DNA from: a virus
Taxonomy: Duplodnaviria > Heunggongvirae > Uroviricota > Caudoviricetes
Virus record (IMG/VR): IMGVR_UViG_2534682327_000012
Direction: 5' to 3' (one strand)
DNA length: 31,984 nt
Part shown: piece after piece, positions 1-24,119 of the stretch
Layout of the letters: each line of letters starts with the position of its first letter
Position numbering within the stretch: position 1 is the first letter of the stretch
The notes under the pieces: model-generated
Told to the model about the DNA's origin: nothing
The model's input: the letters and a program-made list of their open reading frames with translations, nothing else
Database searches by the model: none
Program-made: the position numbers and the translations under genes

Positions 1-1011
1 TTATAACGTCACTCCGCCTTTTAGAGGATTCAGCGCGACGGCATTTTGCAGGTAGTCAGGCGCAAGGTGCGCATAGGCCATCGTCTGCTGAATGCTCGCA
101 TGTCCCAGAATCTGTTGCAGTGCGATTATATTGCCCCCATTCATCATGAAATGGCTTGCGAATGTATGACGCAGGATGTGGGTTGCCTGATTGGGTGGTA
201 TATCTGGCTTCACTCTGCGTAAAATCCCGCAAAACTTCTCATAATCAACTTTGAATAATTTAGCGCTGGCCTCCTCTTTAACTTTTTTCTCCAGTTCCTC
301 AGAAATCGGCACGGTTCGCTTTTTACCGTTTTTGGTTTTCAGGAAGGTAACCCTGCAATTTGTAATCTGTGCTGGTTTTAGCGTGGCAACTTCCGTCCAT
401 CTTCCTCCAGTGCTCAGACATAAAAGTGCGACAAGTAAGTCATCACCATCCAAAACATTTAACAGTTTTTCGATTTCTGCTTTTTCCAGGAACGTCATTT
501 CAGGGTTGGCCTCCGCCAGTGGCGGCAGTCCGTGAATTGGGTGTTGCCCGGAAAATTCATCCAATTGAATTAATTTTGTGAACATGCCGGATAATCGGTA
601 CATGTCACGGTTTATCGTTGCGGCACTGATACCATCACGTAGTCGCATGGAACGATAATCCATCAAAGCTCTTTTGCTCATCCGGCTCACTGGTATATCA
701 CCTATGCCGCTGATGGTTTTGAGCAGATGATTAAACTCTTTTGTTCCATGCTCGTGGTTTTGCCCGTGATATTTCCACCAGATGTCCAGCAACTCACTCA
801 AAGTTCTGCGATCTGCTCGCTGACCTGCCCATTCTTTCTGGCTGGCGTAGGCGATTGTGTATCGCTCAAATGCTACAGCCTCAGCTTTTCTTTCAAATTT
901 CCTGCGGATGCGTTTTCCGTCGCGACCGCGAGGTCTAATGTCCACTTCATAGCGTCCATCATCGAGCTTCTTAATTGACATAAGAAAGCCCTCTGACGCT
1001 GTATTCACCAT
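1..1011 (-). CDS. int: Tyrosine integrase (P2 Int family), 336 aa
   Basis: Translation has N-terminal IKKLDDGRYEVDIRP and C-terminal catalytic region HILRHTFASHF ... TMAYAHLAPDYL (His/Arg box and catalytic Tyr) typical of P2-type integrases; diverged from P2 Int itself. Confidence 0.93.
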   Translation of the reverse strand: MVNTASEGFLMSIKKLDDGRYEVDIRPRGRDGKRIRRKFERKAEAVAFERYTIAYASQKEWAGQRADRRTLSELLDIWWKYHGQNHEHGTKEFNHLLKTISGIGDIPVSRMSKRALMDYRSMRLRDGISAATINRDMYRLSGMFTKLIQLDEFSGQHPIHGLPPLAEANPEMTFLEKAEIEKLLNVLDGDDLLVALLCLSTGGRWTEVATLKPAQITNCRVTFLKTKNGKKRTVPISEELEKKVKEEASAKLFKVDYEKFCGILRRVKPDIPPNQATHILRHTFASHFMMNGGNIIALQQILGHASIQQTMAYAHLAPDYLQNAVALNPLKGGVTL

Positions 1012-3525: not shown

Positions 3526-5800
3526 AGCCTCCGGGCATTTTGTCCCTCCGTCAGCATTTGCTGCAGGCACCGGTAAGGCGTTTACCGGTGCTTATGCATG
3601 GAACGCGCCACGCGAGGCTGTCGGGCGCGAAAGACCCCTTACACGTGACGAGATGCGTCAGGTGCAAGGTGTTTTATCCACGATTAACCGCCTGCCTTAC
3701 TTTTTGCGCTCGCTGTTTACGTCACGCTATGACTACATCCGGCGCAATAAAAGCCCGGTGCACGGGTTTTATTTCCTCACATCCACTTTTCAGCGTCGTT
3801 TATGGCCGCGCATTGAGCGTGTGAATCAGCGCCATGAAATGAACACCGACGCGTCGATGCTGTTTCTGGCTGAGCGTGACCACTATGCGCGCCTGCCGGG
3901 AATGAATGACAAGGAGCTGAAAAAGTTTGCCGCCCGTATCTCATCGCAGCTTTTCATGATGTATGAGGAACTCAGCGATGCCTGGGTGGATGCGCATGGC
4001 GAAAAAGAATCACTGTTTACGGATGAGGCTCAGGCTCACCTGTATGGTCATGTTGCTGGCGCTGCACGAGCTTTCAATATTTCCCCTCTCTACTGGAAAA
4101 AATACCGTAAAGGACAGATGACCACGAGGCAGGCATATTCTGCCATTGCCCGTCTGTTTAACGATGAGTGGTGGACTCATCAGCTTAAAGGCCAGCGTAT
4201 GCGCTGGCATGAAGCGTTACTGATAGCTGTCGGGGAGGTCAATAAAGACCGTTCTCCTTATGCCAGTAAACACGCCATTCGTGATGTGCGTGCGCGCCGC
4301 CAGGCAAATCTGGAATTTCTTAAATCGTGTGATCTCGAAAACAGGGAAACCGGCGAGCGCATCGACCTTATCAGTAAGGTGATGGGCAGTATTTCTAATC
4401 CTGAAATTCGCCGGATGGAGCTGATGAACACCATTGCTGGTATTGAGCGTTACGCCGCAGCAGAGGGTGATGTGGGGATGTTTATCACGCTCACCGCGCC
4501 GTCAAAGTATCACCCGACACGTCAGGTTGGAAAAGGCGAAAGTAAAACCGTCCAGCTAAATCACGGCTGGAACGATGAGGCATTTAATCCAAAGGATGCG
4601 CAGCGTTATCTCTGCCGTATCTGGAGCCTGATGCGCACGGCATTCAAGGATAATGATTTACAGGTCTACGGTTTGCGTGTCGTCGAGCCACACCACGACG
4701 GAACGCCGCACTGGCATATGATGCTTTTTTGTAATCCGCGCCAGCGTAACCAGATTATCGAAATCATGCGTCGCTATGCGCTCAAAGAGGATGGCGACGA
4801 AAGAGGAGCCGCGCGAAACCGTTTTCAGGCGAAACACCTTAATCGGGGCGGTGCTGCGGGGTATATCGCGAAATACATCTCAAAAAACATCGACGGCTAT
4901 GCACTGGATGGTCAGCTCGATAACGATACCGGTAAGCCGCTTAAAGATACTGCCGCGGCTGTTACTGCATGGGCGTCAACGTGGCGCATCCCGCAATTTA
5001 AAACGGTTGGTCTGCCGACAATGGGGGCTTACCGTGAACTACGCAAATTGCCGCGCGGCGTCAGCATTGCTGATGAGTTTGACGAGCGCGTCGAGGCTGC
5101 ACGCGCCGCCGCAGACAGTGGTGATTTTGCGTTGTATATCAGCGCGCAGGGTGGGGCAAATGTCCCGCGCGATTGTCAGACTGTCAGGGTCGCCCGTAGC
5201 CCGTCGGATGACGTTAACGAGTACGAGGAAGAGGTCGAGAGAGTGGTCGGCATTTACGCGCCGCATCTCGGCGCGCGTCATATTCATATCACCAGAACGA
5301 CGGACTGGCGCATTGTGCCGAAAGTTCCGGTCGTTGAGCCTTTGACTTTAAAAAGCGGCATCGCCGCGCCTCGGAGTCCTGTCAATAACTGTGGAAAGCT
5401 CACTGGTGGTGATACTTCGTTACCGGCTCCCACACCTTCTGAACACGCCGCAGCAGTGCTTAATCTGGTTGATGACGGTGTTATCGAATGGAATGACCCG
5501 GAGGTCGTGAGGGGGCTCAGGGGCGCATTAAAACACGGCCTGAGAACACCAAATCGTCAGCAAAGAAACGGAAGCCCGCTAAAACCACATGAAATTGCAC
5601 CATCGGCCAGGCTGACCCGGCCGGAACGATTGCAAATTACCCGTATCCGCGTTGACCTTGCTCAGAACGGTATCAGGCCTCAGCGATGGGAGCTTGAGGC
5701 GCTGGCGCGTGGCGCGACCGTAAATTATGACGGGAAAAAATTCACGTATCCGGTCGCTGATGAGTGGCCGGGATTCTCAACAGTAATGGAGTGGAAATGA
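3515..5800 (+). CDS. A: Replication initiation protein A (rolling-circle HUH endonuclease), 761 aa
   Basis: Translation from MAVKASGHFVPPSAFAAGTGK matches P2 gpA as I recall it; HUH motif TPHWHMMLF and Tyr motif AAGYIAKYISKNIDGY present; the track ORF begins 14 codons upstream at 3473, but the ATG at 3515 gives the P2-like N-terminus. Confidence 0.93.
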   Translation: MAVKASGHFVPPSAFAAGTGKAFTGAYAWNAPREAVGRERPLTRDEMRQVQGVLSTINRLPYFLRSLFTSRYDYIRRNKSPVHGFYFLTSTFQRRLWPRIERVNQRHEMNTDASMLFLAERDHYARLPGMNDKELKKFAARISSQLFMMYEELSDAWVDAHGEKESLFTDEAQAHLYGHVAGAARAFNISPLYWKKYRKGQMTTRQAYSAIARLFNDEWWTHQLKGQRMRWHEALLIAVGEVNKDRSPYASKHAIRDVRARRQANLEFLKSCDLENRETGERIDLISKVMGSISNPEIRRMELMNTIAGIERYAAAEGDVGMFITLTAPSKYHPTRQVGKGESKTVQLNHGWNDEAFNPKDAQRYLCRIWSLMRTAFKDNDLQVYGLRVVEPHHDGTPHWHMMLFCNPRQRNQIIEIMRRYALKEDGDERGAARNRFQAKHLNRGGAAGYIAKYISKNIDGYALDGQLDNDTGKPLKDTAAAVTAWASTWRIPQFKTVGLPTMGAYRELRKLPRGVSIADEFDERVEAARAAADSGDFALYISAQGGANVPRDCQTVRVARSPSDDVNEYEEEVERVVGIYAPHLGARHIHITRTTDWRIVPKVPVVEPLTLKSGIAAPRSPVNNCGKLTGGDTSLPAPTPSEHAAAVLNLVDDGVIEWNDPEVVRGLRGALKHGLRTPNRQQRNGSPLKPHEIAPSARLTRPERLQITRIRVDLAQNGIRPQRWELEALARGATVNYDGKKFTYPVADEWPGFSTVMEWK

Positions 5801-6252
5801 TGGCAAAAATTCACGAGGTAAAGCTGCACGCAAAATATTTTGACCTTGTGCTGGAAGGAAAGAAACGCGCAGAGTTTCGGAAAAATGACCGTAATTATGA
5901 GCGCGGGGACACGTTGATTTTGCATGAATGGGTGCAGGGTGTGTTTACGGGGCGAAAGGTTGAAGCCCGGATAACAGATGTTACTGACCTGTCAGACTGG
6001 CTGGAAGACTATGTCTTGCTAAGTATTGAGCTGCTTAATACAGGCGCATATGAGATTGTGAACTGGAAAGAACTTAGTGAGCGTGGCCTGGTATTCAGAA
6101 TTAATCATGAAATTATGCATCAGCTCGGCCTTGCTGTTATGTATGAACCAGAGACGGGGATGTCTGGCGGGGCAATGGTCGCCACGGATGGAGCATGGAA
6201 CTATTCAGATGAACAGATGGAGCGTGCACAGCAAAACGGGTGGCTTGGATAA
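5797..6252 (+). CDS. ASCH/PUA-like small protein (DUF3850-like), ~151 aa
   Basis: ATG overlaps the A stop; N-terminus KIHEVKLHAKYFDLVLEGKKRAEFRKNDRNYERGDTLILHEW resembles the DUF3850/ASCH family as I remember it (domain call moderate). Confidence 0.7.
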   Translation: MMAKIHEVKLHAKYFDLVLEGKKRAEFRKNDRNYERGDTLILHEWVQGVFTGRKVEARITDVTDLSDWLEDYVLLSIELLNTGAYEIVNWKELSERGLVFRINHEIMHQLGLAVMYEPETGMSGGAMVATDGAWNYSDEQMERAQQNGWLG

Positions 6253-6458: not shown

Positions 6459-6530
6459 AGAACGCCGCCAGTCGTGAAACTTGTTTTCAGGGCTGGCGGG
6501 GTTGAACAATGAGCGTAGCGAGGCGTTAGC

Positions 6531-7265
6531 CTATTTATTAAAAAATTCTAGAAGTGTAATTCCATTGGCTCCAAGGCTTACAAAGCCTTCAATACTATTA
6601 ATTGATGTGATTGTCTTTTTCAGAATGTTCTTTAGCTTTGAGCCTTCTTCGGTCGTAGTTATTACTTCGTTAAATTGCTCAGACATACAAGCATGCCCCA
6701 TTGTGGCTTCTGTTGCTGAAATTATTGGCTCAATACCAGTTATTTCATAGTCGTCAAAAGCTCTAATCATGTTGTCAATGTAATATAATATTTCTTTTTT
6801 TAGGTTAATTGGGAAGTCAGAATTAATTATGGATTCCTTCAGTTCTAATAATTGCCCCTTTATTTCAATTAACTGTTCATCTTTAAGTTTTCCAATCTGA
6901 CCTTTGGTCTTGAATAGGACTGATATCATCCCTAATTCATTTATGGCATTATCAGAGATTCTTTGGAGGGAATGGGACAGAGATTCTCCCAGATTTAAGT
7001 TTTCGAAAAAATCATTAACACTGGGCCTCCAGTGTGGTGCTGTGATTTCATCTTCTGGAAAGTAGTCTTTTAATGTGTTATCTATTTTTTTAGGCAAGCT
7101 CATGATTTTGGAAATCTTATCCCATAAGATGGTTTTATTATCTTCAGAACCCTCTAATTCAAACATTTGTAATAAAGCACGCTTTACCGTAATGTTATAT
7201 GGTTGTTGTGCTTTTAGCTTGGTGAAAAACTCTCGTAAGGTCAGTGCTGAATTGTCGATGTACAT
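6531..7265 (-). CDS. Low-GC cargo protein of unknown function in the tin/old slot, 244 aa
   Basis: Long uninterrupted ORF on the strand opposite the early operon, visibly AT-rich compared with flanking phage core; sits between gene A and cos where P2 carries tin/old; no motif I can recognise. Confidence 0.75.
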   Translation of the reverse strand: MYIDNSALTLREFFTKLKAQQPYNITVKRALLQMFELEGSEDNKTILWDKISKIMSLPKKIDNTLKDYFPEDEITAPHWRPSVNDFFENLNLGESLSHSLQRISDNAINELGMISVLFKTKGQIGKLKDEQLIEIKGQLLELKESIINSDFPINLKKEILYYIDNMIRAFDDYEITGIEPIISATEATMGHACMSEQFNEVITTTEEGSKLKNILKKTITSINSIEGFVSLGANGITLLEFFNK

Positions 7266-7467
7266 GGAAAAACCTAACAGTCAAATTATTAATAATAGAA
7301 CAACAAGATACTAATAAAATCTAACGTTAGTATCAATAACGAATATATGCGCATACTGCATGAAAATGCATTTTCTTTTAAGGGGGCGATATATCGAGTC
7401 GAGTCATGGTTGATGCGACATTAGTGTGCTGGTGCAACTGCATTCAAACAGACCCATGAAGCGGGCG

Positions 7468-7486
7468 GGCGAGGCGGGGAAAGCAC
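7468..7486. other. cos: cos site (19-nt cohesive-end sequence GGCGAGGCGGGGAAAGCAC)
   Basis: Exact 19-mer present ~170 bp beyond the 3' end of Q, matching my recollection of the P2 cohesive end and its position relative to Q. Confidence 0.6.
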
Positions 7487-7655
7487 TGCGCGCTGGCGGT
7501 GGTGCTGATTTTATTTTTTCAGCGTCTGAGCGCGTCGTGATGGCGTTTAGTCGGCCTGCCGGGGCGTTGGTGTGTCTGCGGGGTGTTTTGTACAGTGGCG
7601 AACGTGTGAGGGCGTGATGACGGGGTGTAAAAAAGCCGCCCGCAGGCGGCGATGT

Positions 7656-8690: not shown

Positions 8691-10462
8691 CAGTAAAACT
8701 CCAGAATGGTGGATGTCAGCGGGGTGCTGATACCGGCGGTGAGTGGCTCATTTAACAGGGCGTGCATGGTCGCCCAGGCGAGGTCGGCGTGGCTGGCTTC
8801 CTCGCTGCGGCTGGCCTCATAGGTGGCGCTGCGTCCGCTGCTGGTCATGGTCTTGCGGATAGCCATAAACGAGCTGGTGATGTCGGTGGCGCTGACGTCA
8901 TATTCCAGACAGCCACGACGGATAACGTCTTTTGCCTTGAGCACCATTGCGGTTTTCATTTCCGGTGTGTAGCGGATATCGCGCGCGGCGGGATAGAACG
9001 AGCGCACGAGCTGGAACACGCCGACACCGAGGCCGGTGGCATCAATACCGATGTATTCGACGTTATATTTTTCGGTGAGTTTTCGGATGGATTCCGCCTG
9101 GGTGGCAAAGTCCATGCCTTTCCACTGGTGACGCTCAAGTATTCTGAATTTGCCACCGGCCACCACCGGCGGTGCCAGTACCACGCATCCGGCGCTGTCG
9201 CCACGGTGTGACGGGTCGTAACCAATCCATACCGGGCGGGAGCCGAACGGATTGGCGGCAAACGGCGCATAGTCTTCCCATTCTTCCAACGTGTCGACCA
9301 TGCAGCGTTGCAGCTCCTCGAACGGGAACACCGATGCCTTGTCGTCAACAAATTCACACATGAACAGGTTTTTAAAATCGTCGGCGCTGTTTTCGCGTTT
9401 GAGCTGCTCAATGTCGAACAGCGTGCAGCCGCCTTTCAGGGCGTCCTCAATGGTGACAATCTGTCGCCACTGGCCGTCCGCACAGAGAAGCCCACCGGCA
9501 AGGGCGTTATGACTGACGTCGATTTCCACACGTTCGGCGGCGCTGGCGCGTCCCCGGTTAAACAGTTCACCCGACCAGAACGGGTAGGCGTCGTGCGCCA
9601 GCGTGGACGGGGTGGAGAAATAGGTCGAGCGCAGGTGACTCTGTGAGGCCATACCTGATGCCACCTTACGCAGTACCTGAAAATTCGGGATCCAGAAAAT
9701 CTCATCGACGTACAGGTCGCCGTTATGACTCTGCGCGGTGTTGGAGTTGGTGCCGAGAAAAATCAGTTTTGCGCCGTTATTGCCCAGGACAATCGGGTCA
9801 CCGGTCAGGTCAACGTCAACCAGACGGGCAAAGGCGATGATGTATTCGCGGAACACATACGCCTGCGTTTTACTGGCCGACAGAAAAATCTGGTTATGAC
9901 CGGTTTTCAGGGCACGCAGCAGCGCCTCGCGGGAAAAATAAAACGTCGCGCCAATCTGGCGGGATTTCAGGATATCGCGGATGCGGTGCTCAAGCCCGGC
10001 GCGATACCAGTGCAACTGATAGTCGAAAGACTGCTCAAAGAAAATCTGCTCCAGCTTTTCGATGGCCTCGTCACTGAAAAAATTCTTTTTCGGTTTGCGA
10101 CGCCCGCCTTTGTTGCGGTTAGCGACGTTCGGATTAAGGTCTGCCTCGTTGCCGGTCTGACTGTAGCGGTTTACCCGTGCCAGTCGTTCAATCTGGCGTC
10201 CGAGCAGGTCAATTTCCTTGAAGTCACCACCGGTTTTCTGCGGTTTGATGATGAGCTGGGTCAGTCGCGCTTCCAGACTCATTTCGACACGGCTGATGGG
10301 GGCAACGCTGTCCCAGCCGTCGCGCTGTTTCCAGCTCTGCACCGTCGGGCGTTTCATCTGCAACATGGCGGCAATCTGCGGCACGGAAACCCCCTGCCAG
10401 TACAGCAGCGCCGCCTGACGACGCGGGTCGTGTAAAAGAGTGGTGTCTGTGGTGATGGTCAT
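8690..10462 (-). CDS. P: Terminase large (ATPase) subunit P, 590 aa
   Basis: Translation from MTITTDTTLLHDPRRQAALLYWQG matches P2 gpP as I recall it; the track ORF extends 10 codons upstream to 10492, but the ATG at 10462 gives the P2 N-terminus. Confidence 0.92.
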   Translation of the reverse strand: MTITTDTTLLHDPRRQAALLYWQGVSVPQIAAMLQMKRPTVQSWKQRDGWDSVAPISRVEMSLEARLTQLIIKPQKTGGDFKEIDLLGRQIERLARVNRYSQTGNEADLNPNVANRNKGGRRKPKKNFFSDEAIEKLEQIFFEQSFDYQLHWYRAGLEHRIRDILKSRQIGATFYFSREALLRALKTGHNQIFLSASKTQAYVFREYIIAFARLVDVDLTGDPIVLGNNGAKLIFLGTNSNTAQSHNGDLYVDEIFWIPNFQVLRKVASGMASQSHLRSTYFSTPSTLAHDAYPFWSGELFNRGRASAAERVEIDVSHNALAGGLLCADGQWRQIVTIEDALKGGCTLFDIEQLKRENSADDFKNLFMCEFVDDKASVFPFEELQRCMVDTLEEWEDYAPFAANPFGSRPVWIGYDPSHRGDSAGCVVLAPPVVAGGKFRILERHQWKGMDFATQAESIRKLTEKYNVEYIGIDATGLGVGVFQLVRSFYPAARDIRYTPEMKTAMVLKAKDVIRRGCLEYDVSATDITSSFMAIRKTMTSSGRSATYEASRSEEASHADLAWATMHALLNEPLTAGISTPLTSTILEFY

Positions 10463-15961: not shown

Positions 15962-16391
15962 TGCCGTCACGGTGCTGAAAACTAACCCCGATATGCTGCG
16001 GATATTCGTGGATAACGGGAGTATTGCCTCCACACTGGCGGCGTCGCTGTCATTCGAAAAGCGTTACACGCTCAATGTCATTGTGACCGACTTTACCGGT
16101 GATTTTGACCTGCTCATCGTGCCGGTGCTGGCGTGGCTGCGGGAAAATCAGCCCGACATCATGACCACCGACGCAGGCCAGAAAAAGGGCTTCACGTTTT
16201 ATGCAGACATCAACAATGACAGCAGCTTTGATATCAGTATCAGCCTGATGCTGACCGAGCGCACGCTGGTCAGTGAGGTTGACGGTGCGCTGCATGTGAA
16301 GAATATCCCGGAACCCACGCCGCCGGAGCCGGTCACCCGCCCGATGGAGCTTTATATCAATGGCGAACTGGTGAGCAAGTGGGATGAATGA
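15924..16391 (+). CDS. R: Tail completion protein R, 155 aa
   Basis: Size and position in P2 gene order. Confidence 0.88.
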   Translation: MLKPDSLRRALTDAVTVLKTNPDMLRIFVDNGSIASTLAASLSFEKRYTLNVIVTDFTGDFDLLIVPVLAWLRENQPDIMTTDAGQKKGFTFYADINNDSSFDISISLMLTERTLVSEVDGALHVKNIPEPTPPEPVTRPMELYINGELVSKWDE

Positions 16392-16836
16392 GTTTAAGCG
16401 TTTTGAAGACCGGCTGACCGGACTGATTGAGTCGCTGTCACCGTCAGGGCGTCGACGACTGAGTGCCGAACTGGCGAAACGTCTGCGGCAGAGTCAGCAG
16501 CGTCGGGTGATGGCACAGAAAGCCCCGGACGGCACACCCTACGTGCCACGCCAGCAGCAGAGCGCCAGAAAAAAGACTGGTCGTGTTAAGCGAAAAATGT
16601 TTGCGAAACTTATCACCAGTCGTTTTTTGCATATCCGCGCCAGCCCGGAACAGGCATCAATGGAGTTTTACGGCGGGAAGTCACCGAAAATCGCCAGCGT
16701 GCATCAGTTCGGTCTGTCGGAAGAAAACCGGAAAGACGGTAAGAAAATTGATTATCCGGCGCGTCCTCTGCTCGGCTTTACCGGTGAGGATGTGCAGATG
16801 ATTGAAGAGATTATCCTGGCTCACCTTGAGCGTTAG
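16384..16836 (+). CDS. S: Tail completion protein S, 150 aa
   Basis: Size and position in P2 gene order. Confidence 0.88.
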   Translation: MNEFKRFEDRLTGLIESLSPSGRRRLSAELAKRLRQSQQRRVMAQKAPDGTPYVPRQQQSARKKTGRVKRKMFAKLITSRFLHIRASPEQASMEFYGGKSPKIASVHQFGLSEENRKDGKKIDYPARPLLGFTGEDVQMIEEIILAHLER

Positions 16837-16866
16837 TTTTATCCAGGCAGAGGCTGATGCGCAATT

Positions 16867-16901
16867 AAACATTGAGCGGCCATGCTGGTCGCTCAATGTT
16901 T
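16867..16901. terminator. Hairpin between convergent genes S and the slot-2 cargo gene: AAACATTGAGCG, 11-nt loop, CGCTCAATGTTT
   Basis: Perfect 12-bp inverted repeat seen in sequence, located between two convergent stop codons; no strong U-tract. Confidence 0.45.
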
Positions 16902-16907
16902 AGAGGT

Positions 16908-17693
16908 TTATGAGTGATTTTTATTTGATGCTTTGTATTCTACAACCTTCTTATTGGCGTAAAGGAATTTTGTATATGACAGGAATATAACCAGACCTGA
17001 AATGAAATAGATGAGGGATATTATTAATAATGCTTTTTTTTGGCTGTTATTATCTTTAATCTCCTGACTTAACCATTCCGAGTCCTCCTCGTTTAGCTGT
17101 AAGAGCTTATTGCAGGCGATCTCAGGAAGTGTGTCTTTTATAAATACGTTTCGTAGCCTCTTGCAATCGGCAAGGCTATAAGTTTTATTGAATTCAACTG
17201 CTTTATTCTTGAAGGATAAGAGAACTTTGTCACTATAAACATAGTACATCATGTTTTTATATGGTATGCCTATGGCATCCCTTACTATAACGGATTGTTC
17301 GTTGTGTATGTAACATGCGAGGAGAATGCAAAAAATACTGGACAGAATTACAATTATTGTTTTAATTATGTGTGGTGTTTTTGTTATGTCACCCCAGATG
17401 CGAGTAAGGAAAAAACACGATGTTTTTAGTTTTCCATCAATCAGTCCCTGCTGTATCATTCTCACATTTTCAATGCCTGATACATTGATTCCGTTAATTA
17501 TTTTAAATAGTTGAATGTCGCGCCACTCGCGGTCAAGTCTTTTTAATTTTTTGTCTGAATACCCAAAATTGAAATAATGTGCAATAAGCCTCATAAGGTT
17601 ACTTTTACCAAAGCTAAAAAATGCTAATACTGCAAAGCTACAAAGGAAAAAAACGATTAGCCCCCACACATTAGTCACATTATAGCTGACCAT
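16908..17693 (-). CDS. Low-GC cargo membrane protein of unknown function in the orf30 slot, 261 aa
   Basis: Strong RBS AAGGAG 6 nt upstream of the ATG (minus strand); three hydrophobic segments (N-terminal, central, C-terminal); AT-rich; on the strand opposite the late tail operon. Confidence 0.8.
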   Translation of the reverse strand: MVSYNVTNVWGLIVFFLCSFAVLAFFSFGKSNLMRLIAHYFNFGYSDKKLKRLDREWRDIQLFKIINGINVSGIENVRMIQQGLIDGKLKTSCFFLTRIWGDITKTPHIIKTIIVILSSIFCILLACYIHNEQSVIVRDAIGIPYKNMMYYVYSDKVLLSFKNKAVEFNKTYSLADCKRLRNVFIKDTLPEIACNKLLQLNEEDSEWLSQEIKDNNSQKKALLIISLIYFISGLVIFLSYTKFLYANKKVVEYKASNKNHS

Positions 17694-17776
17694 TACGCTC
17701 TCCTTGAATGTTGTCTGGTAGTTCTACAAATGAATCCAGATAGCATAACTTTTATATATTGTGCAATCTCACATGC

Positions 17777-18412
17777 ATGAACACTCTCGCAAATATTCAG
17801 GAACTCGCGCGCGCACTGCGCAACATGATTCGCACCGGCATTATCGTCGAAACCGACCTTAACGCCGGTCGCTGCCGTGTGCAGACCGGCGGCATGTGCA
17901 CCGACTGGCTTCAGTGGCTGACCCATCGCGCCGGACGTTCGCGCACATGGGGGGCACCTTCCGTAGGGGAACAGGTGCTGATTCTGGCCGTGGGCGGTGA
18001 ACTCGACACGGCGTTCGTTCTGCCGGGGATTTATTCCGGCGATAACCCCGCGCCGTCTGCGTCGGCGGATGCCCTGCATATCCGTTTCCCTGACGGGGCG
18101 GTGATTGAGTATGAACCTGAAACCAGTGCGCTCACGGTAAGCGGAGTTAAAACGGCCAGCGTGATGGCTTCTGATTCTGTTACTGCCACGGTGCCGGTGG
18201 TTATGGTGAAAGCATCAACCCGCATCACCCTGGACACACCGGAAGTGGTCTGCACCAACAAACTGACTACCGGCACGCTGGAAGTGCAGAAGGGCGGGAC
18301 GATGCGCGGCAACATTGAACACACCGGCGGTGAACTCTCATCAAACGGTAAGGTACTGCATACCCATAAACACCCCGGCGACAGCGGCGGCACAACCGGG
18401 AGTCCTTTATGA
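17777..18412 (+). CDS. V: Baseplate spike/assembly protein V, 211 aa
   Basis: Translation from MNTLANIQELARALRNMIRTGIIVETDLNAGRCRVQTGGM matches P2 gpV as I recall it; the track ORF starts with a TTG at 17759. Confidence 0.9.
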   Translation: MNTLANIQELARALRNMIRTGIIVETDLNAGRCRVQTGGMCTDWLQWLTHRAGRSRTWGAPSVGEQVLILAVGGELDTAFVLPGIYSGDNPAPSASADALHIRFPDGAVIEYEPETSALTVSGVKTASVMASDSVTATVPVVMVKASTRITLDTPEVVCTNKLTTGTLEVQKGGTMRGNIEHTGGELSSNGKVLHTHKHPGDSGGTTGSPL

Positions 18413-22500: not shown

Positions 22501-23028
22501 ATGCAGCATTTAAAAAATATTACTGCGGGTAATCCAAAAACTGTTGCCCAATATCAACTGACAAAAAATTTTGATGTTATCTGGTTATGGTCCGAAGAGG
22601 GAAAAAACTGGTATGAGGAAGTAAGTAATTTTCAGGCAGACACGATAAAGATTGTTTACGACGAGAATAATATAATTGTCGGCATCACCAGAGATGCTTC
22701 AACGCTTAACCCTGAAGGTTTTAGCGTTGTCGAGGTTCCTGATATTACCGCCAACCGACGTGCTGATGACTCAGGGAAATGGATGTTTAAGGATGGTGCC
22801 GTGATTAAGCGGATTTATACGGCAGACGAACAGCAACAACAGGCAGAATCACAAAAGGCCGCGTTACTTTCCGAAGCGGAAAGCGTTATTCAGCCACTGG
22901 AGCGCGCTGTCAGGCTGAACATGGCAACAGATGAGGAGCGTAGCCGACTGGAAGCATGGGAACGCTACAGTGTTCTGGTCAGCCGTGTGGATCCTGCAAA
23001 TCCTGAATGGCCGGAAATGCCGCAATAA
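22501..23028 (+). CDS. G: Tail fibre assembly protein G, 175 aa
   Basis: Immediately downstream of H; size and order. Confidence 0.85.
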
Positions 23029-23157
23029 GTGATATGATCTCTTGTGTTAGTTAACATAGCTATAGTACAGAGTAAGGCCTAATCTGACAGTCCGCTCTGT
23101 GCTAGGAGCGGACATTATCAACATCATGCTATGTTAATGTATAAAGTGAAGATAAAT

Positions 23158-23166
23158 TGATATAAT
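23158..23166 (+). promoter_or_regulatory. Candidate extended -10 promoter element TGaTATAAT upstream of the slot-3 cargo gene
   Basis: TG-n-TATAAT seen in the AT-rich G/FI intergenic region; no good -35 hexamer found. Confidence 0.3.
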
Positions 23167-23416
23167 AAGGCCACCATGAATATTTCAGAACCTTGTCAAA
23201 AGGTTTGCCCATACTCTAGTCTTGCAATGTGTAGTTGATAGTTCCACTGAGGAGGTTCTTCGACATTCTTTATAAAAATGTACATTTTCATCAATAATAA
23301 GAGGTAAAAGGGCTTTAATAGTTTTTGTGGATGTTATTTCTACTCATAAATTTTGAGATAAGTATTGAGTTGAGATAAAGTTAAACTCGTTAAATTCACC
23401 TTTAAAAGGATAAAAC

Positions 23417-23944
23417 ATGGACTGGAAAGATCTTGCATCAACCGCTGTGTATACAGGTATGACTGATGAAAATGAAAGCATATGGGAACGTGTTGATGGG
23501 GTTGACGTTGCCTTCATAGGTGCCTTTCTTACTGCGCACTTGAGCCTTGAAAAGTATATTACTGATTATCTTGGATTAAGATATCCTTCGTTAGCTTGGG
23601 GTGATGCAAAACTCACATTTTCACAAAAAATAGCTTTAATACAACATGAGCCTGCAAAACCCCCTTATGATGAAATATATTTAAGAATAAAAGACTTTAA
23701 CAGCATAAGAAATAAAATCAGTCATCAATTGAATTATCAGATTACGGATAAAGAAAAAAGTAAGTTTGTGGACTTCTATATGAAGATTACTAAAGCCAGT
23801 AAAACTAAACCAAATATTGATATTGATAACATGGCAGATTTGTTGGGTTTTTTCGTATCGATGACAAAATCCTATTTTGCTAGTGCTATTTCTTATTATC
23901 ATTATAATAAAAAGGTTGCAGGTAAAAGTAATAAAATTGATTAA
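23417..23944 (+). CDS. Low-GC cargo protein in the Z/fun slot, 175 aa; candidate HEPN-like RNase (motif R98-N-K-I-S-H103)
   Basis: RBS AAGGA ~7 nt upstream of the ATG; AT-rich; RNKISH encoded at 23708..23725 fits the HEPN Rx4-6H motif with the usual Asn after Arg; a terminator follows downstream. Confidence 0.75.
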   Translation: MDWKDLASTAVYTGMTDENESIWERVDGVDVAFIGAFLTAHLSLEKYITDYLGLRYPSLAWGDAKLTFSQKIALIQHEPAKPPYDEIYLRIKDFNSIRNKISHQLNYQITDKEKSKFVDFYMKITKASKTKPNIDIDNMADLLGFFVSMTKSYFASAISYYHYNKKVAGKSNKID

Positions 23945-24119
23945 TAAAACTGGACTTAGGGATAATTAATATATAGACGTTCTATCATTTTTAGAGTGTG
24001 CGGCAGCTCCATACATTCATGCGGATGTCAGCACCTCGCTCAAAGCAGACAGTCAGATTTGATAGCGTTTGGACTATGTAAATAGTCAGTTGGAAAATGA
24101 GTGAGTACAAATCAGGACA

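What the first reader, a model, noticed from the sequence alone, without database searches (positions are those of the whole stretch)
16837..17776. orf30-slot cargo: reverse-oriented low-GC membrane protein inserted between tail genes S and V
A 261-aa AT-rich ORF on the minus strand interrupts the otherwise co-directional late tail operon. It has a near-perfect RBS (AAGGAG, 6-nt spacer) and three hydrophobic segments (approx. residues 10-28, 110-130, 225-245) flanking soluble regions. A 12-bp perfect inverted repeat (16867..16901) separates it from the convergent S gene. Membrane proteins in moron positions are frequently superinfection-exclusion or abortive-infection factors; I recognise no family.
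Basis: partly seen in the sequence, partly recalled or inferred. Interest (0 to 1): 0.62.

Follow-up and report, generated by a model that had tools for sequence, protein, structure and literature searches.

The report
Phage P2 orf30 membrane protein gene
This is the long-known but still uncharacterised orf30 gene of phage P2, a three-pass inner-membrane protein carried between two tail-gene operons; it most likely protects the lysogen from other phages, but that has not been shown.

Summary
In detail: a 261-aa ORF (16908..17693, minus strand, GC 0.34 against about 0.57 in the flanks), an AAGGAG ribosome-binding site, three hydrophobic helices and a strong hairpin. It is not unrecognised cargo. 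It is P2 Orf30 itself (95% amino-acid identity, same slot and orientation; phrog_2407). It was described in the 1990s as nonessential with unknown function, and no source or paper I could search assigns a function.

New here:
- The family has about 44 clusters at 50% identity and touches Pfam DUF6216 only weakly.
- Relatives only 20-34% identical occupy the same S-V slot, antisense, in P2-like prophages of Serratia, Yersinia and other Enterobacterales, where V is 69-83% identical.
- The gene stays intact in decayed prophage remnants (E. coli B, Serratia, Enterobacter). It is under purifying selection in the one remnant pair tested (Serratia, omega about 0.17).
- All 25 aligned members share the predicted topology (N-out, conserved basic loop in, Cys-pair domain out, C-in).
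- The slot is polymorphic in E. coli: about 28% orf30, most empty, a few with other low-GC cargo.

There is no sequence or fold match to any known exclusion or defence protein. Best reading: a lysogen-benefiting inner-membrane protein, probably superinfection exclusion at DNA entry. This is inferred, not shown.

The parts
16837..17776 (.). The orf30 cassette: low-GC DNA that replaces the whole S-stop to V-start spacer (940 bp here, 66 bp in empty-slot phages)
   Evidence: GC 0.34-0.38 against about 0.57 in the flanks. Homology to empty-slot phage pro147 and to three other slot variants breaks right after the S stop codon and resumes at the V ATG.
16866..16902 (.). 17-bp-stem hairpin between the convergent S and orf30 genes; candidate two-way terminator
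   Evidence: z -5.3 and -6.1. Corresponds to the 'putative rho-independent terminator for O operon' in the P2 record. It has no clear T-tract and was not picked up by the terminator scan. Empty-slot phages carry a different hairpin.
16908..17693 (-). orf30 coding sequence, 261 aa: TM1 (about 9-28), conserved basic loop 1 (29-107), TM2 (108-131), loop 2 alpha/beta domain with Cys177/Cys194 (132-219), TM3 (220-243), basic tail
   Evidence: 95.4% amino-acid identity to P2 Orf30; phrog_2407 E 1.4e-146.
17700..17705 (-). Ribosome-binding site AAGGAG, 6 nt before the orf30 ATG
   Evidence: Read from the sequence. AAGGAG or GAGGAG in all seven E. coli alleles aligned.
17708..17735 (+). Activator (Ogr) binding site of the late V promoter, inside the 83-bp orf30-V divergent spacer
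   Evidence: Position transferred from the P2 record feature 10239..10266. The spacer is 98% conserved among E. coli alleles. A TTGT core is kept at a similar distance upstream of V in all slot variants aligned.
16384..16836 (+). Flanking gene S (tail completion), last gene of the O operon
17777..18412 (+). Flanking gene V (baseplate spike), first gene of the V operon

Best explanation
The feature is the P2 orf30 cassette: a hairpin terminator, a reverse-oriented gene and its own version of the late V promoter, sitting between the S and V tail genes of a complete P2-like prophage.

The product is predicted to be a three-pass inner-membrane protein with this layout:
- a short uncharged N-terminus in the periplasm;
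- a conserved, net-positive, roughly 80-residue helical loop in the cytoplasm;
- a roughly 90-residue alpha/beta domain, held by a conserved cysteine pair, in the periplasm;
- a basic C-terminal tail in the cytoplasm.

I propose that it is made from the prophage and is not needed for virion production. I propose that it benefits the lysogen by acting at the inner membrane against incoming phages, most likely by blocking DNA entry (superinfection exclusion, working like P22 SieA or HK97 gp15).

Shown: gene identity, anatomy, predicted architecture, slot polymorphism, persistence in decayed prophages, and purifying selection in one remnant pair.
Inferred: topology, expression in the lysogen, and the exclusion function itself.
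For: Identity: 95.4% amino-acid identity to P2 Orf30, same position and strand; phrog_2407 over its full length.

Real protein: omega 0.3-0.5 among E. coli alleles; the two loops are constrained (pN/pS about 0.3) and the TM helices are free to vary.

Architecture: kept in 25 relatives at 15-39% identity. All have the Cys177(174)/Cys194 pair, zero Lys/Arg in the N-tail, loop 1 net +5, loop 2 net about 0, and a basic C-tail. The AlphaFold model is confident: pLDDT 87.5, pTM 0.76.

Same slot, deep divergence: relatives 20-34% identical sit antisense between S and V in intact P2-like prophages of Serratia, Yersinia, an unclassified Enterobacteriaceae genome and one metagenome contig. V in these is 69-83% identical.

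Survival without a working phage:
- Intact gene in decayed remnants in S. rubidaea and S. odorifera at the same chromosomal locus, 53% amino-acid identity, pN 0.30 against pS 0.71, omega about 0.17.
- Also intact in Enterobacter (L026), in E. coli B (Q-to-S deletion), in an E. coli strain with truncated V, and in metagenome remnants.

Accessory nature: present in about 28% of E. coli S-V junctions; the P2 record marks it nonessential.

[quoted passage not shown] One family member sits in a P4-satellite remnant between the primase fragment and the element end, a location reported as a minor P4 defence hotspot, next to an AAA_15/21 + HNH gene pair.
Against: - No experiment supports it. No paper found assigns a function, and the P2 hotspot studies do not mention orf30.
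- No convincing sigma-70 promoter upstream, so expression in lysogens is unproven.
- The most conserved part is the cytoplasmic loop, not the periplasmic domain that would face an incoming phage.
- None of the other cargos in this slot is a recognised defence gene.
- The selection test rests on one remnant pair with saturated pS, so its omega is approximate.
- Retention in remnants shows a benefit or low cost to the host. It does not show phage defence specifically.
Confidence: 0.4

Rival explanations
1. Abortive-infection effector. Orf30 would be a membrane protein whose conserved cytoplasmic loop senses a phage product. It would then oligomerise through its three TM helices to depolarise the membrane, killing the infected lysogen before the invader replicates.
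For: Single-gene, low-GC accessory cassette in a prophage whose two other hotspots classically carry abortive systems (old, tin, fun). The most conserved region is cytoplasmic, as expected for a sensor. It is kept in dead prophages.
Against: No PADLOC or annotated PHROG match. No pore-former or known effector fold. The conserved periplasmic Cys-pair domain has no obvious role in this model. No toxicity data exist.
Confidence: 0.2
2. A lysogenic-conversion factor unrelated to phages. It would be an envelope protein that changes host physiology, for example tolerance to bacteriocins, tailocins or contact-dependent toxins, stress signalling across the membrane, or colonisation.
For: Purifying selection in a chromosomal remnant pair shared by two Serratia species shows a host-level benefit without saying which. 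The bipartite layout (cytoplasmic domain, TM, periplasmic disulfide domain) loosely recalls membrane-tethered sensors; this is from my own knowledge of ToxR and CadC and was not tested. Weak link to DUF6216, a bacterial family of unknown function.
Against: In the contexts examined the family is tied almost entirely to the tail-gene slot of P2-like phages, plus one P4-like remnant. It was never seen in ordinary chromosomal operons. No enzyme or DNA-binding domain was detected.
Confidence: 0.2
3. A function in P2's own cycle, for example fine-tuning lysis, tail assembly or late transcription. It could act through the protein, or merely through the AT-rich DNA, terminator and promoter that the cassette brings.
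For: Location between two late operons. The cassette supplies the hairpin after S and its own version of the V promoter. The orf30-V spacer is 98% conserved. Low GC (0.33-0.36) is maintained across the whole family.
Against: Marked nonessential in the P2 record. Most E. coli P2-like prophages, and phage isolates such as pro147, lack it entirely. It is antisense to late transcription. The protein is under purifying selection and survives where the tail genes around it are fragmented, so a role confined to virion production does not explain its retention.
Confidence: 0.1

Closest known systems
Bacteriophage P2 Orf30 (AAD03281; 'Uncharacterized 30.4 kDa protein in S-V intergenic region'; phrog_2407)
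   Same: 95.4% amino-acid identity, same length, same slot between S and V, same reverse orientation, same hairpin and V-promoter spacer.
   Different: Only allelic differences, mostly in TM1 and TM2. The prophage here carries different cargo in the other two variable regions: no Pfam or PADLOC hit in the old/tin slot or the Z/fun slot.
P22 SieA superinfection-exclusion protein
   Same: Prophage-encoded and predicted three-TM. The gene is convergent to the end of a late operon. The family is split into types less than 30% identical to each other. SieA blocks DNA injection by related phages.
   Different: No detectable homology (hhalign probability 0.3%). SieA is 162-164 aa with short loops, whereas Orf30 has two domains of 80-90 residues. 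SieA has an annotated promoter and a demonstrated function; Orf30 has neither.
HK97 gp15 moron (inner-membrane exclusion protein among the tail genes)
   Same: An accessory gene inserted among tail genes with its own terminator. From my own knowledge it encodes an inner-membrane protein that stops DNA entry.
   Different: gp15 is 62 aa, co-directional with the tail genes, and not homologous (hhalign probability 0.8%).
Pfam DUF6216 (family of unknown function)
   Same: Eight of 25 family members give weak hits, best E 8.7e-7, over the N-terminal two-thirds of the profile. Proteins are of similar length.
   Different: The window protein gives no hit. The one scoring member whose bit score was read falls below the gathering threshold (24.3 against 27.3 bits). 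DUF6216 has no known function, so the link explains nothing.
P2 accessory hotspots: old/tin (between A and Q) and Z/fun (after G)
   Same: Low-GC, variable, horizontally exchanged cargo at fixed positions between conserved P2 genes. The orf30 region is listed with them as the third variable region.
   Different: Those two hotspots have experimentally shown anti-phage cargo. No cargo of the S-V slot has a shown function, and the hotspot papers I read do not name orf30.

Membership tests
P2 Orf30 / phrog_2407 | Full-length match to the family profile | tested here: met
   phrog_2407 E 1.4e-146, residues 1-261 against profile 1-261. All 25 aligned relatives also hit it.
P2 Orf30 / phrog_2407 | Located between tail genes S and V, antisense to them | tested here: met
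   The same holds for relatives in L006, L013, L020, L024 and L028.
Pfam DUF6216 | Score at or above the Pfam gathering threshold (27.3 bits) | tested here: not met
   No hit for the window protein. 8 of 25 relatives hit weakly, best E 8.7e-7. P0037 scores 24.3 bits, below the cutoff.
P22 SieA-type exclusion proteins | Sequence homology to SieA | tested here: not met
   hhalign of the family profile against P22 SieA: probability 0.3%.
P22 SieA-type exclusion proteins | Integral inner-membrane protein with three TM helices | tested here: met
   Prediction only: three hydropathy peaks and three long helices in a confident model. Charge distribution is consistent across 25 members. Membrane localisation was not tested.
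P22 SieA-type exclusion proteins | Expressed from the prophage and blocks DNA injection by related phages | not testable with these tools
   No promoter match in the 83-bp upstream spacer. No expression or infection data were found.
HK97 gp15-type tail-region moron | Sequence homology to gp15 | tested here: not met
   hhalign probability 0.8%.
HK97 gp15-type tail-region moron | Self-contained unit (own promoter and terminator) inserted between tail genes | tested here: inconclusive
   Strong hairpin present, and the insertion is sharply bounded. No convincing promoter.
Known anti-phage defence systems (PADLOC-DB 2.0) | Match to any defence-protein model | tested here: not met
   0 families even at E up to 10.
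O-antigen or envelope-modifying conversion enzymes (Gtr, Oac and similar) | Match to a glycosyltransferase, acyltransferase or flippase domain | tested here: not met
   No Pfam or NCBIfam family for the window protein, and none among the 25 relatives beyond chance-level hits.

The most novel reading that the evidence does not exclude
Orf30 would be the founding member of an old, fast-diverging class of inner-membrane immunity proteins hard-wired at the S-V junction of P2-like phages across Enterobacterales. These proteins would couple a disulfide-braced periplasmic domain to a conserved cytoplasmic domain, and would be repeatedly domesticated by bacteria from dying prophages. This would be a third functional defence locus of P2, with a mechanism unrelated by sequence or fold to SieA, Imm, gp15 or any catalogued system.
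Probability: 0.3. Interest if true: 0.6.

Novelty: already known. Interest (0 to 1): 0.35.

Why it matters
P2 is a model temperate phage, and its other two variable loci turned out to be rich sources of anti-phage systems. orf30 has carried the label 'nonessential, unknown function' for about thirty years and is absent from the recent P2 hotspot papers I read.

The comparative results give a concrete reason to test it:
- deeply diverged relatives fixed in the same slot across genera;
- intact copies in dead prophages, including the one in E. coli B, with purifying selection shown in one Serratia pair;
- a conserved bipartite membrane architecture.

They also point to specific residues and domains to mutate. 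If it is an exclusion protein, it would add a new family to the short list of inner-membrane blocks to phage DNA entry. It could also affect phage susceptibility of the roughly 9% of complete E. coli genomes that carry it (464 of 5426).

Tried and rejected
- Pfam, NCBIfam and PADLOC scans of the window protein gave nothing.
- Foldseek against viral structures found no hit below E 0.06. The AFDB library was unavailable.
- PDB sequence search found nothing meaningful.
- Profile comparison with P22 SieA and HK97 gp15 was negative.
- No plasmid copies. No phage isolates outside the 21 P2-type records, even when querying with distant members.
- The three alternative cargos of the slot have no secure domain or defence hit, so the slot cannot be called a defence hotspot by association.
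- The promoter scan found no sigma-70 match upstream of orf30 here or in two relatives.
- Literature searches for orf30, P2 hotspots, P2 lysogen exclusion and DUF6216 found no functional data.
- Holin role rejected: P2 has its own lysis genes upstream; the gene is antisense to late transcription; its loops are large soluble domains.
- 'Non-coding AT-rich spacer' rejected because of purifying selection and the conserved architecture.

Full report
**1. Observation**

The ORF is real and at the stated place: 16908..17693 on the minus strand, 261 aa, ATG start. Its GC is 0.344, against 0.55-0.62 in the neighbouring tail genes. AAGGAG lies 6 nt upstream of the ATG. A 19-residue Kyte-Doolittle scan gives three peaks at residues 9-27, 109-127 and 221-239.

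It has 17-nt arms (16866-16882 and 16886-16902), one mismatch and a 3-nt loop. It folds far better than shuffled sequence on either strand (z -5.3 and -6.1). The finding's limits, 16837..17776, are exactly the S stop to V start interval.

**2. What it is**

The window is a complete P2-like prophage. It runs from the integrase at 1..1011 through A, Q, P and the late genes to D, followed by a host cation-efflux gene.

The ORF is P2 Orf30 itself. It is 95.4% identical in amino acids to AAD03281, in the same position and orientation. The 2.2-kb S-orf30-V stretch is 97.1% identical to P2. It matches phrog_2407 (unknown function) from end to end.

The P2 record calls the gene 'nonessential'. It calls the hairpin the 'putative rho-independent terminator for O operon'. 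It places the activator binding site of the V promoter in the 83-bp orf30-V spacer. So orf30 lies between two late operons, not inside one.

Public sources name the protein only 'hypothetical' or 'Uncharacterized 30.4 kDa protein in S-V intergenic region'.

Papers that mention orf30 say its function is unknown. They list it with the old/tin and Z/fun regions as one of three variable, horizontally acquired P2 regions. The recent P2 hotspot and defence papers I read do not mention it.

**3. The slot**

Homology with an empty-slot phage (pro147) stops right after the S stop codon and resumes at the V start. The empty spacer is 66 bp and has a different hairpin. The cassette therefore brings the hairpin, the gene and its own version of the V promoter region. 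A TTGT core upstream of V is kept in all slot variants aligned.

Occupancy in 5426 complete E. coli genomes:
- 1631 have the S-V junction;
- 464 carry the orf30 cassette, 460 of them covering at least 80% of the query;
- in an evenly spaced sample of the hits, most of the rest are empty;
- a few hold unrelated low-GC genes.

The three alternative cargos examined are a 247-aa soluble protein, a 347-aa protein with two C-terminal TM helices, and a 246-aa protein with a weak HNH signal. None has a secure family or defence hit. Nothing in it has a known function.

**4. The protein family**

A word-indexed search found only four close clusters and one 40%-identical Enterobacter protein. An exhaustive profile search of 1.84 billion representatives found 44 clusters at 50% identity, about 25 of them full length at 250-270 aa.

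All numbering below is for the full-length protein. The alignments and models lack Met1, so their numbers are one lower.

The alignment of 25 members at 15-39% identity keeps one architecture:
- TM1;
- a conserved loop of about 79 residues with the motif D-x-Q-L-F-[RK]-x3-G-I-N-V-x4-D-A;
- TM2;
- a loop of about 82 residues;
- TM3;
- a basic tail.

Every member has a cysteine pair at positions 177 (or 174) and 194.

The charge pattern is uniform. The N-tail has no Lys or Arg in any member. Loop 1 has net charge +5.0 on average and loop 2 has -0.4. The C-tail is the most basic segment. By the positive-inside rule this gives N-out, loop 1 in, loop 2 out, C-in. That places the cysteine pair in the oxidising periplasm. 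This topology is an inference.

With the deeper alignment AlphaFold gives a confident model (pLDDT 87.5, pTM 0.76). It has three long helices, three short helices in loop 1, and four strands plus helices in loop 2.

No solved or viral predicted structure matches beyond generic membrane-helix similarity. Eight of the 25 members hit Pfam DUF6216 weakly. The window protein does not, and the member whose score was read is below threshold. PADLOC and NCBIfam give nothing.

**5. Evolution and context**

Among seven E. coli alleles:

| Gene | omega | Mean dN |
|---|---|---|
| orf30 | 0.3-0.5 | 0.069 |
| R | 0.03-0.19 | 0.011 |
| S | 0.05-0.17 | 0.009 |

Within orf30 the loops are constrained (pN/pS about 0.3) and TM1 varies freely. 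The gene is therefore a real, constrained protein that evolves several times faster than its structural neighbours.

Distant relatives keep the same address. They sit antisense between S and V in intact P2-like prophages of Serratia ureilytica and S. nevei, Yersinia frederiksenii, an unclassified Enterobacteriaceae genome and a metagenome contig. Orf30 identity in these is 20-34% while V is 69-83%.

The gene is also intact where the phage is dead:
- S. rubidaea and S. odorifera share a remnant at the same chromosomal locus. The flank is 85% identical. The tail genes are reduced to fragments in S. odorifera, and in S. rubidaea only V and a short S fragment remain.
- In that pair the orf30-like genes are 53% identical, with pN 0.30 against pS 0.71. 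Omega is about 0.17; this is approximate because pS is saturated.
- Intact copies also sit in an Enterobacter remnant, in E. coli B (deletion from Q into S), in an E. coli strain with truncated V, and next to I and int fragments in metagenome contigs.

In Leclercia the gene lies between a P4-type primase fragment and the end of a satellite remnant. That remnant also carries an integrase, an AAA_15/21 ATPase plus HNH gene pair, and psu. A 2026 preprint reports that location as a minor P4 defence hotspot.

All family genes keep GC at 0.33-0.36 whatever the host GC (0.45-0.61). This is unexplained.

**6. How it most likely works**

The data show an accessory inner-membrane protein. It is dispensable for the phage, common but not fixed, fast-evolving, tied to P2-type elements, and still intact after several prophages have died (with selection tested in one pair). 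That points to a benefit to the host cell in the prophage state.

The best-fitting mechanism is superinfection exclusion at the inner membrane. Orf30 is predicted to have a periplasmic domain facing the point where an incoming tail delivers DNA. It is a single gene. Its anatomy parallels P22 sieA: three TM helices, convergent to the end of a late operon, and sequence types less than 30% identical. It also parallels the HK97 gp15 moron among tail genes.

It is not a member of either family.

Weak points:
- no promoter is recognisable in the conserved 83-bp spacer;
- the cytoplasmic loop, not the periplasmic one, is the most conserved;
- there is no experimental evidence at all.

I put superinfection exclusion at about 0.4, abortive infection at 0.2, a non-phage conversion function at 0.2 and a role in P2's own cycle at 0.1.

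**7. Verdict**

The feature is real and already known as P2 orf30. The claim of an unrecognised family is wrong.

The added value is comparative: slot fidelity across genera at about 20% identity, survival in decayed prophages, a conserved Cys-pair topology, and a weak DUF6216 link. This turns an old 'unknown' into a well-defined experimental target.

Noticed in passing
window 6500-7500 (ORF 6531..7265, minus strand, 244 aa): The old/tin hotspot of this prophage (between A and Q) is a low-GC island (0.35-0.39). It holds one 244-aa ORF with no Pfam or PADLOC hit, so it is not P2 old/tin.
   Followed up: partly
window 5764..6252 (+): A 162-aa ORF just after gene A carries DUF3850/ASCH and DUF7415 domains. 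Its function was not examined.
   Followed up: no
window 23000-24000 (ORF 23417..23944, plus strand, 175 aa): The Z/fun hotspot after gene G is the lowest-GC stretch of the window (0.30-0.36). It holds a 175-aa ORF with no Pfam or PADLOC hit.
   Followed up: partly
L003 1051-1794, L004 940-1983, L005 855-1595: Three unrelated low-GC genes occupy the S-V slot in other E. coli prophages. They are 247 aa soluble, 347 aa with two C-terminal TM helices, and 246 aa with a weak HNH signal on the forward strand. None is annotated or matches a defence model.
   Followed up: partly
L007 7272-9021; L021 and L022 6252-8674: Serratia rubidaea and S. odorifera share a decayed P2-like remnant at the same chromosomal site next to an Asp-Al_Ex transporter gene. 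It contains ogr and pieces of D, V, S and R. Only the orf30-like gene is intact in both species; S. rubidaea also retains a near-full-length V.
   Followed up: yes
L027 258-6750: In Leclercia adecarboxylata an Orf30-family gene sits at the edge of a P4-like satellite remnant. The remnant has a split integrase, an AAA_15/21 ATPase plus HNH gene pair (Septu-like by domain content), psu and a primase fragment.
   Followed up: partly
L019 (E. coli B-LamR) 286-2057: The defective P2-like prophage of E. coli B has a deletion joining the portal gene to a fragment of S, but keeps an intact 261-aa orf30.
   Followed up: partly
window 16908-17693 and family loci L006, L007, L013, L024, L026-L028: Every family member has GC 0.33-0.36 despite divergence to about 20% identity and host GC of 0.45-0.61. 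The AT-richness is therefore maintained and is not a trace of recent import.
   Followed up: no
database cluster of the window's Orf30 sequence: The exact window protein is filed in a 90%-identity cluster whose representative and most listed members are 197-aa 'recombinase family proteins'. This looks like a clustering artefact of the collection.
   Followed up: no
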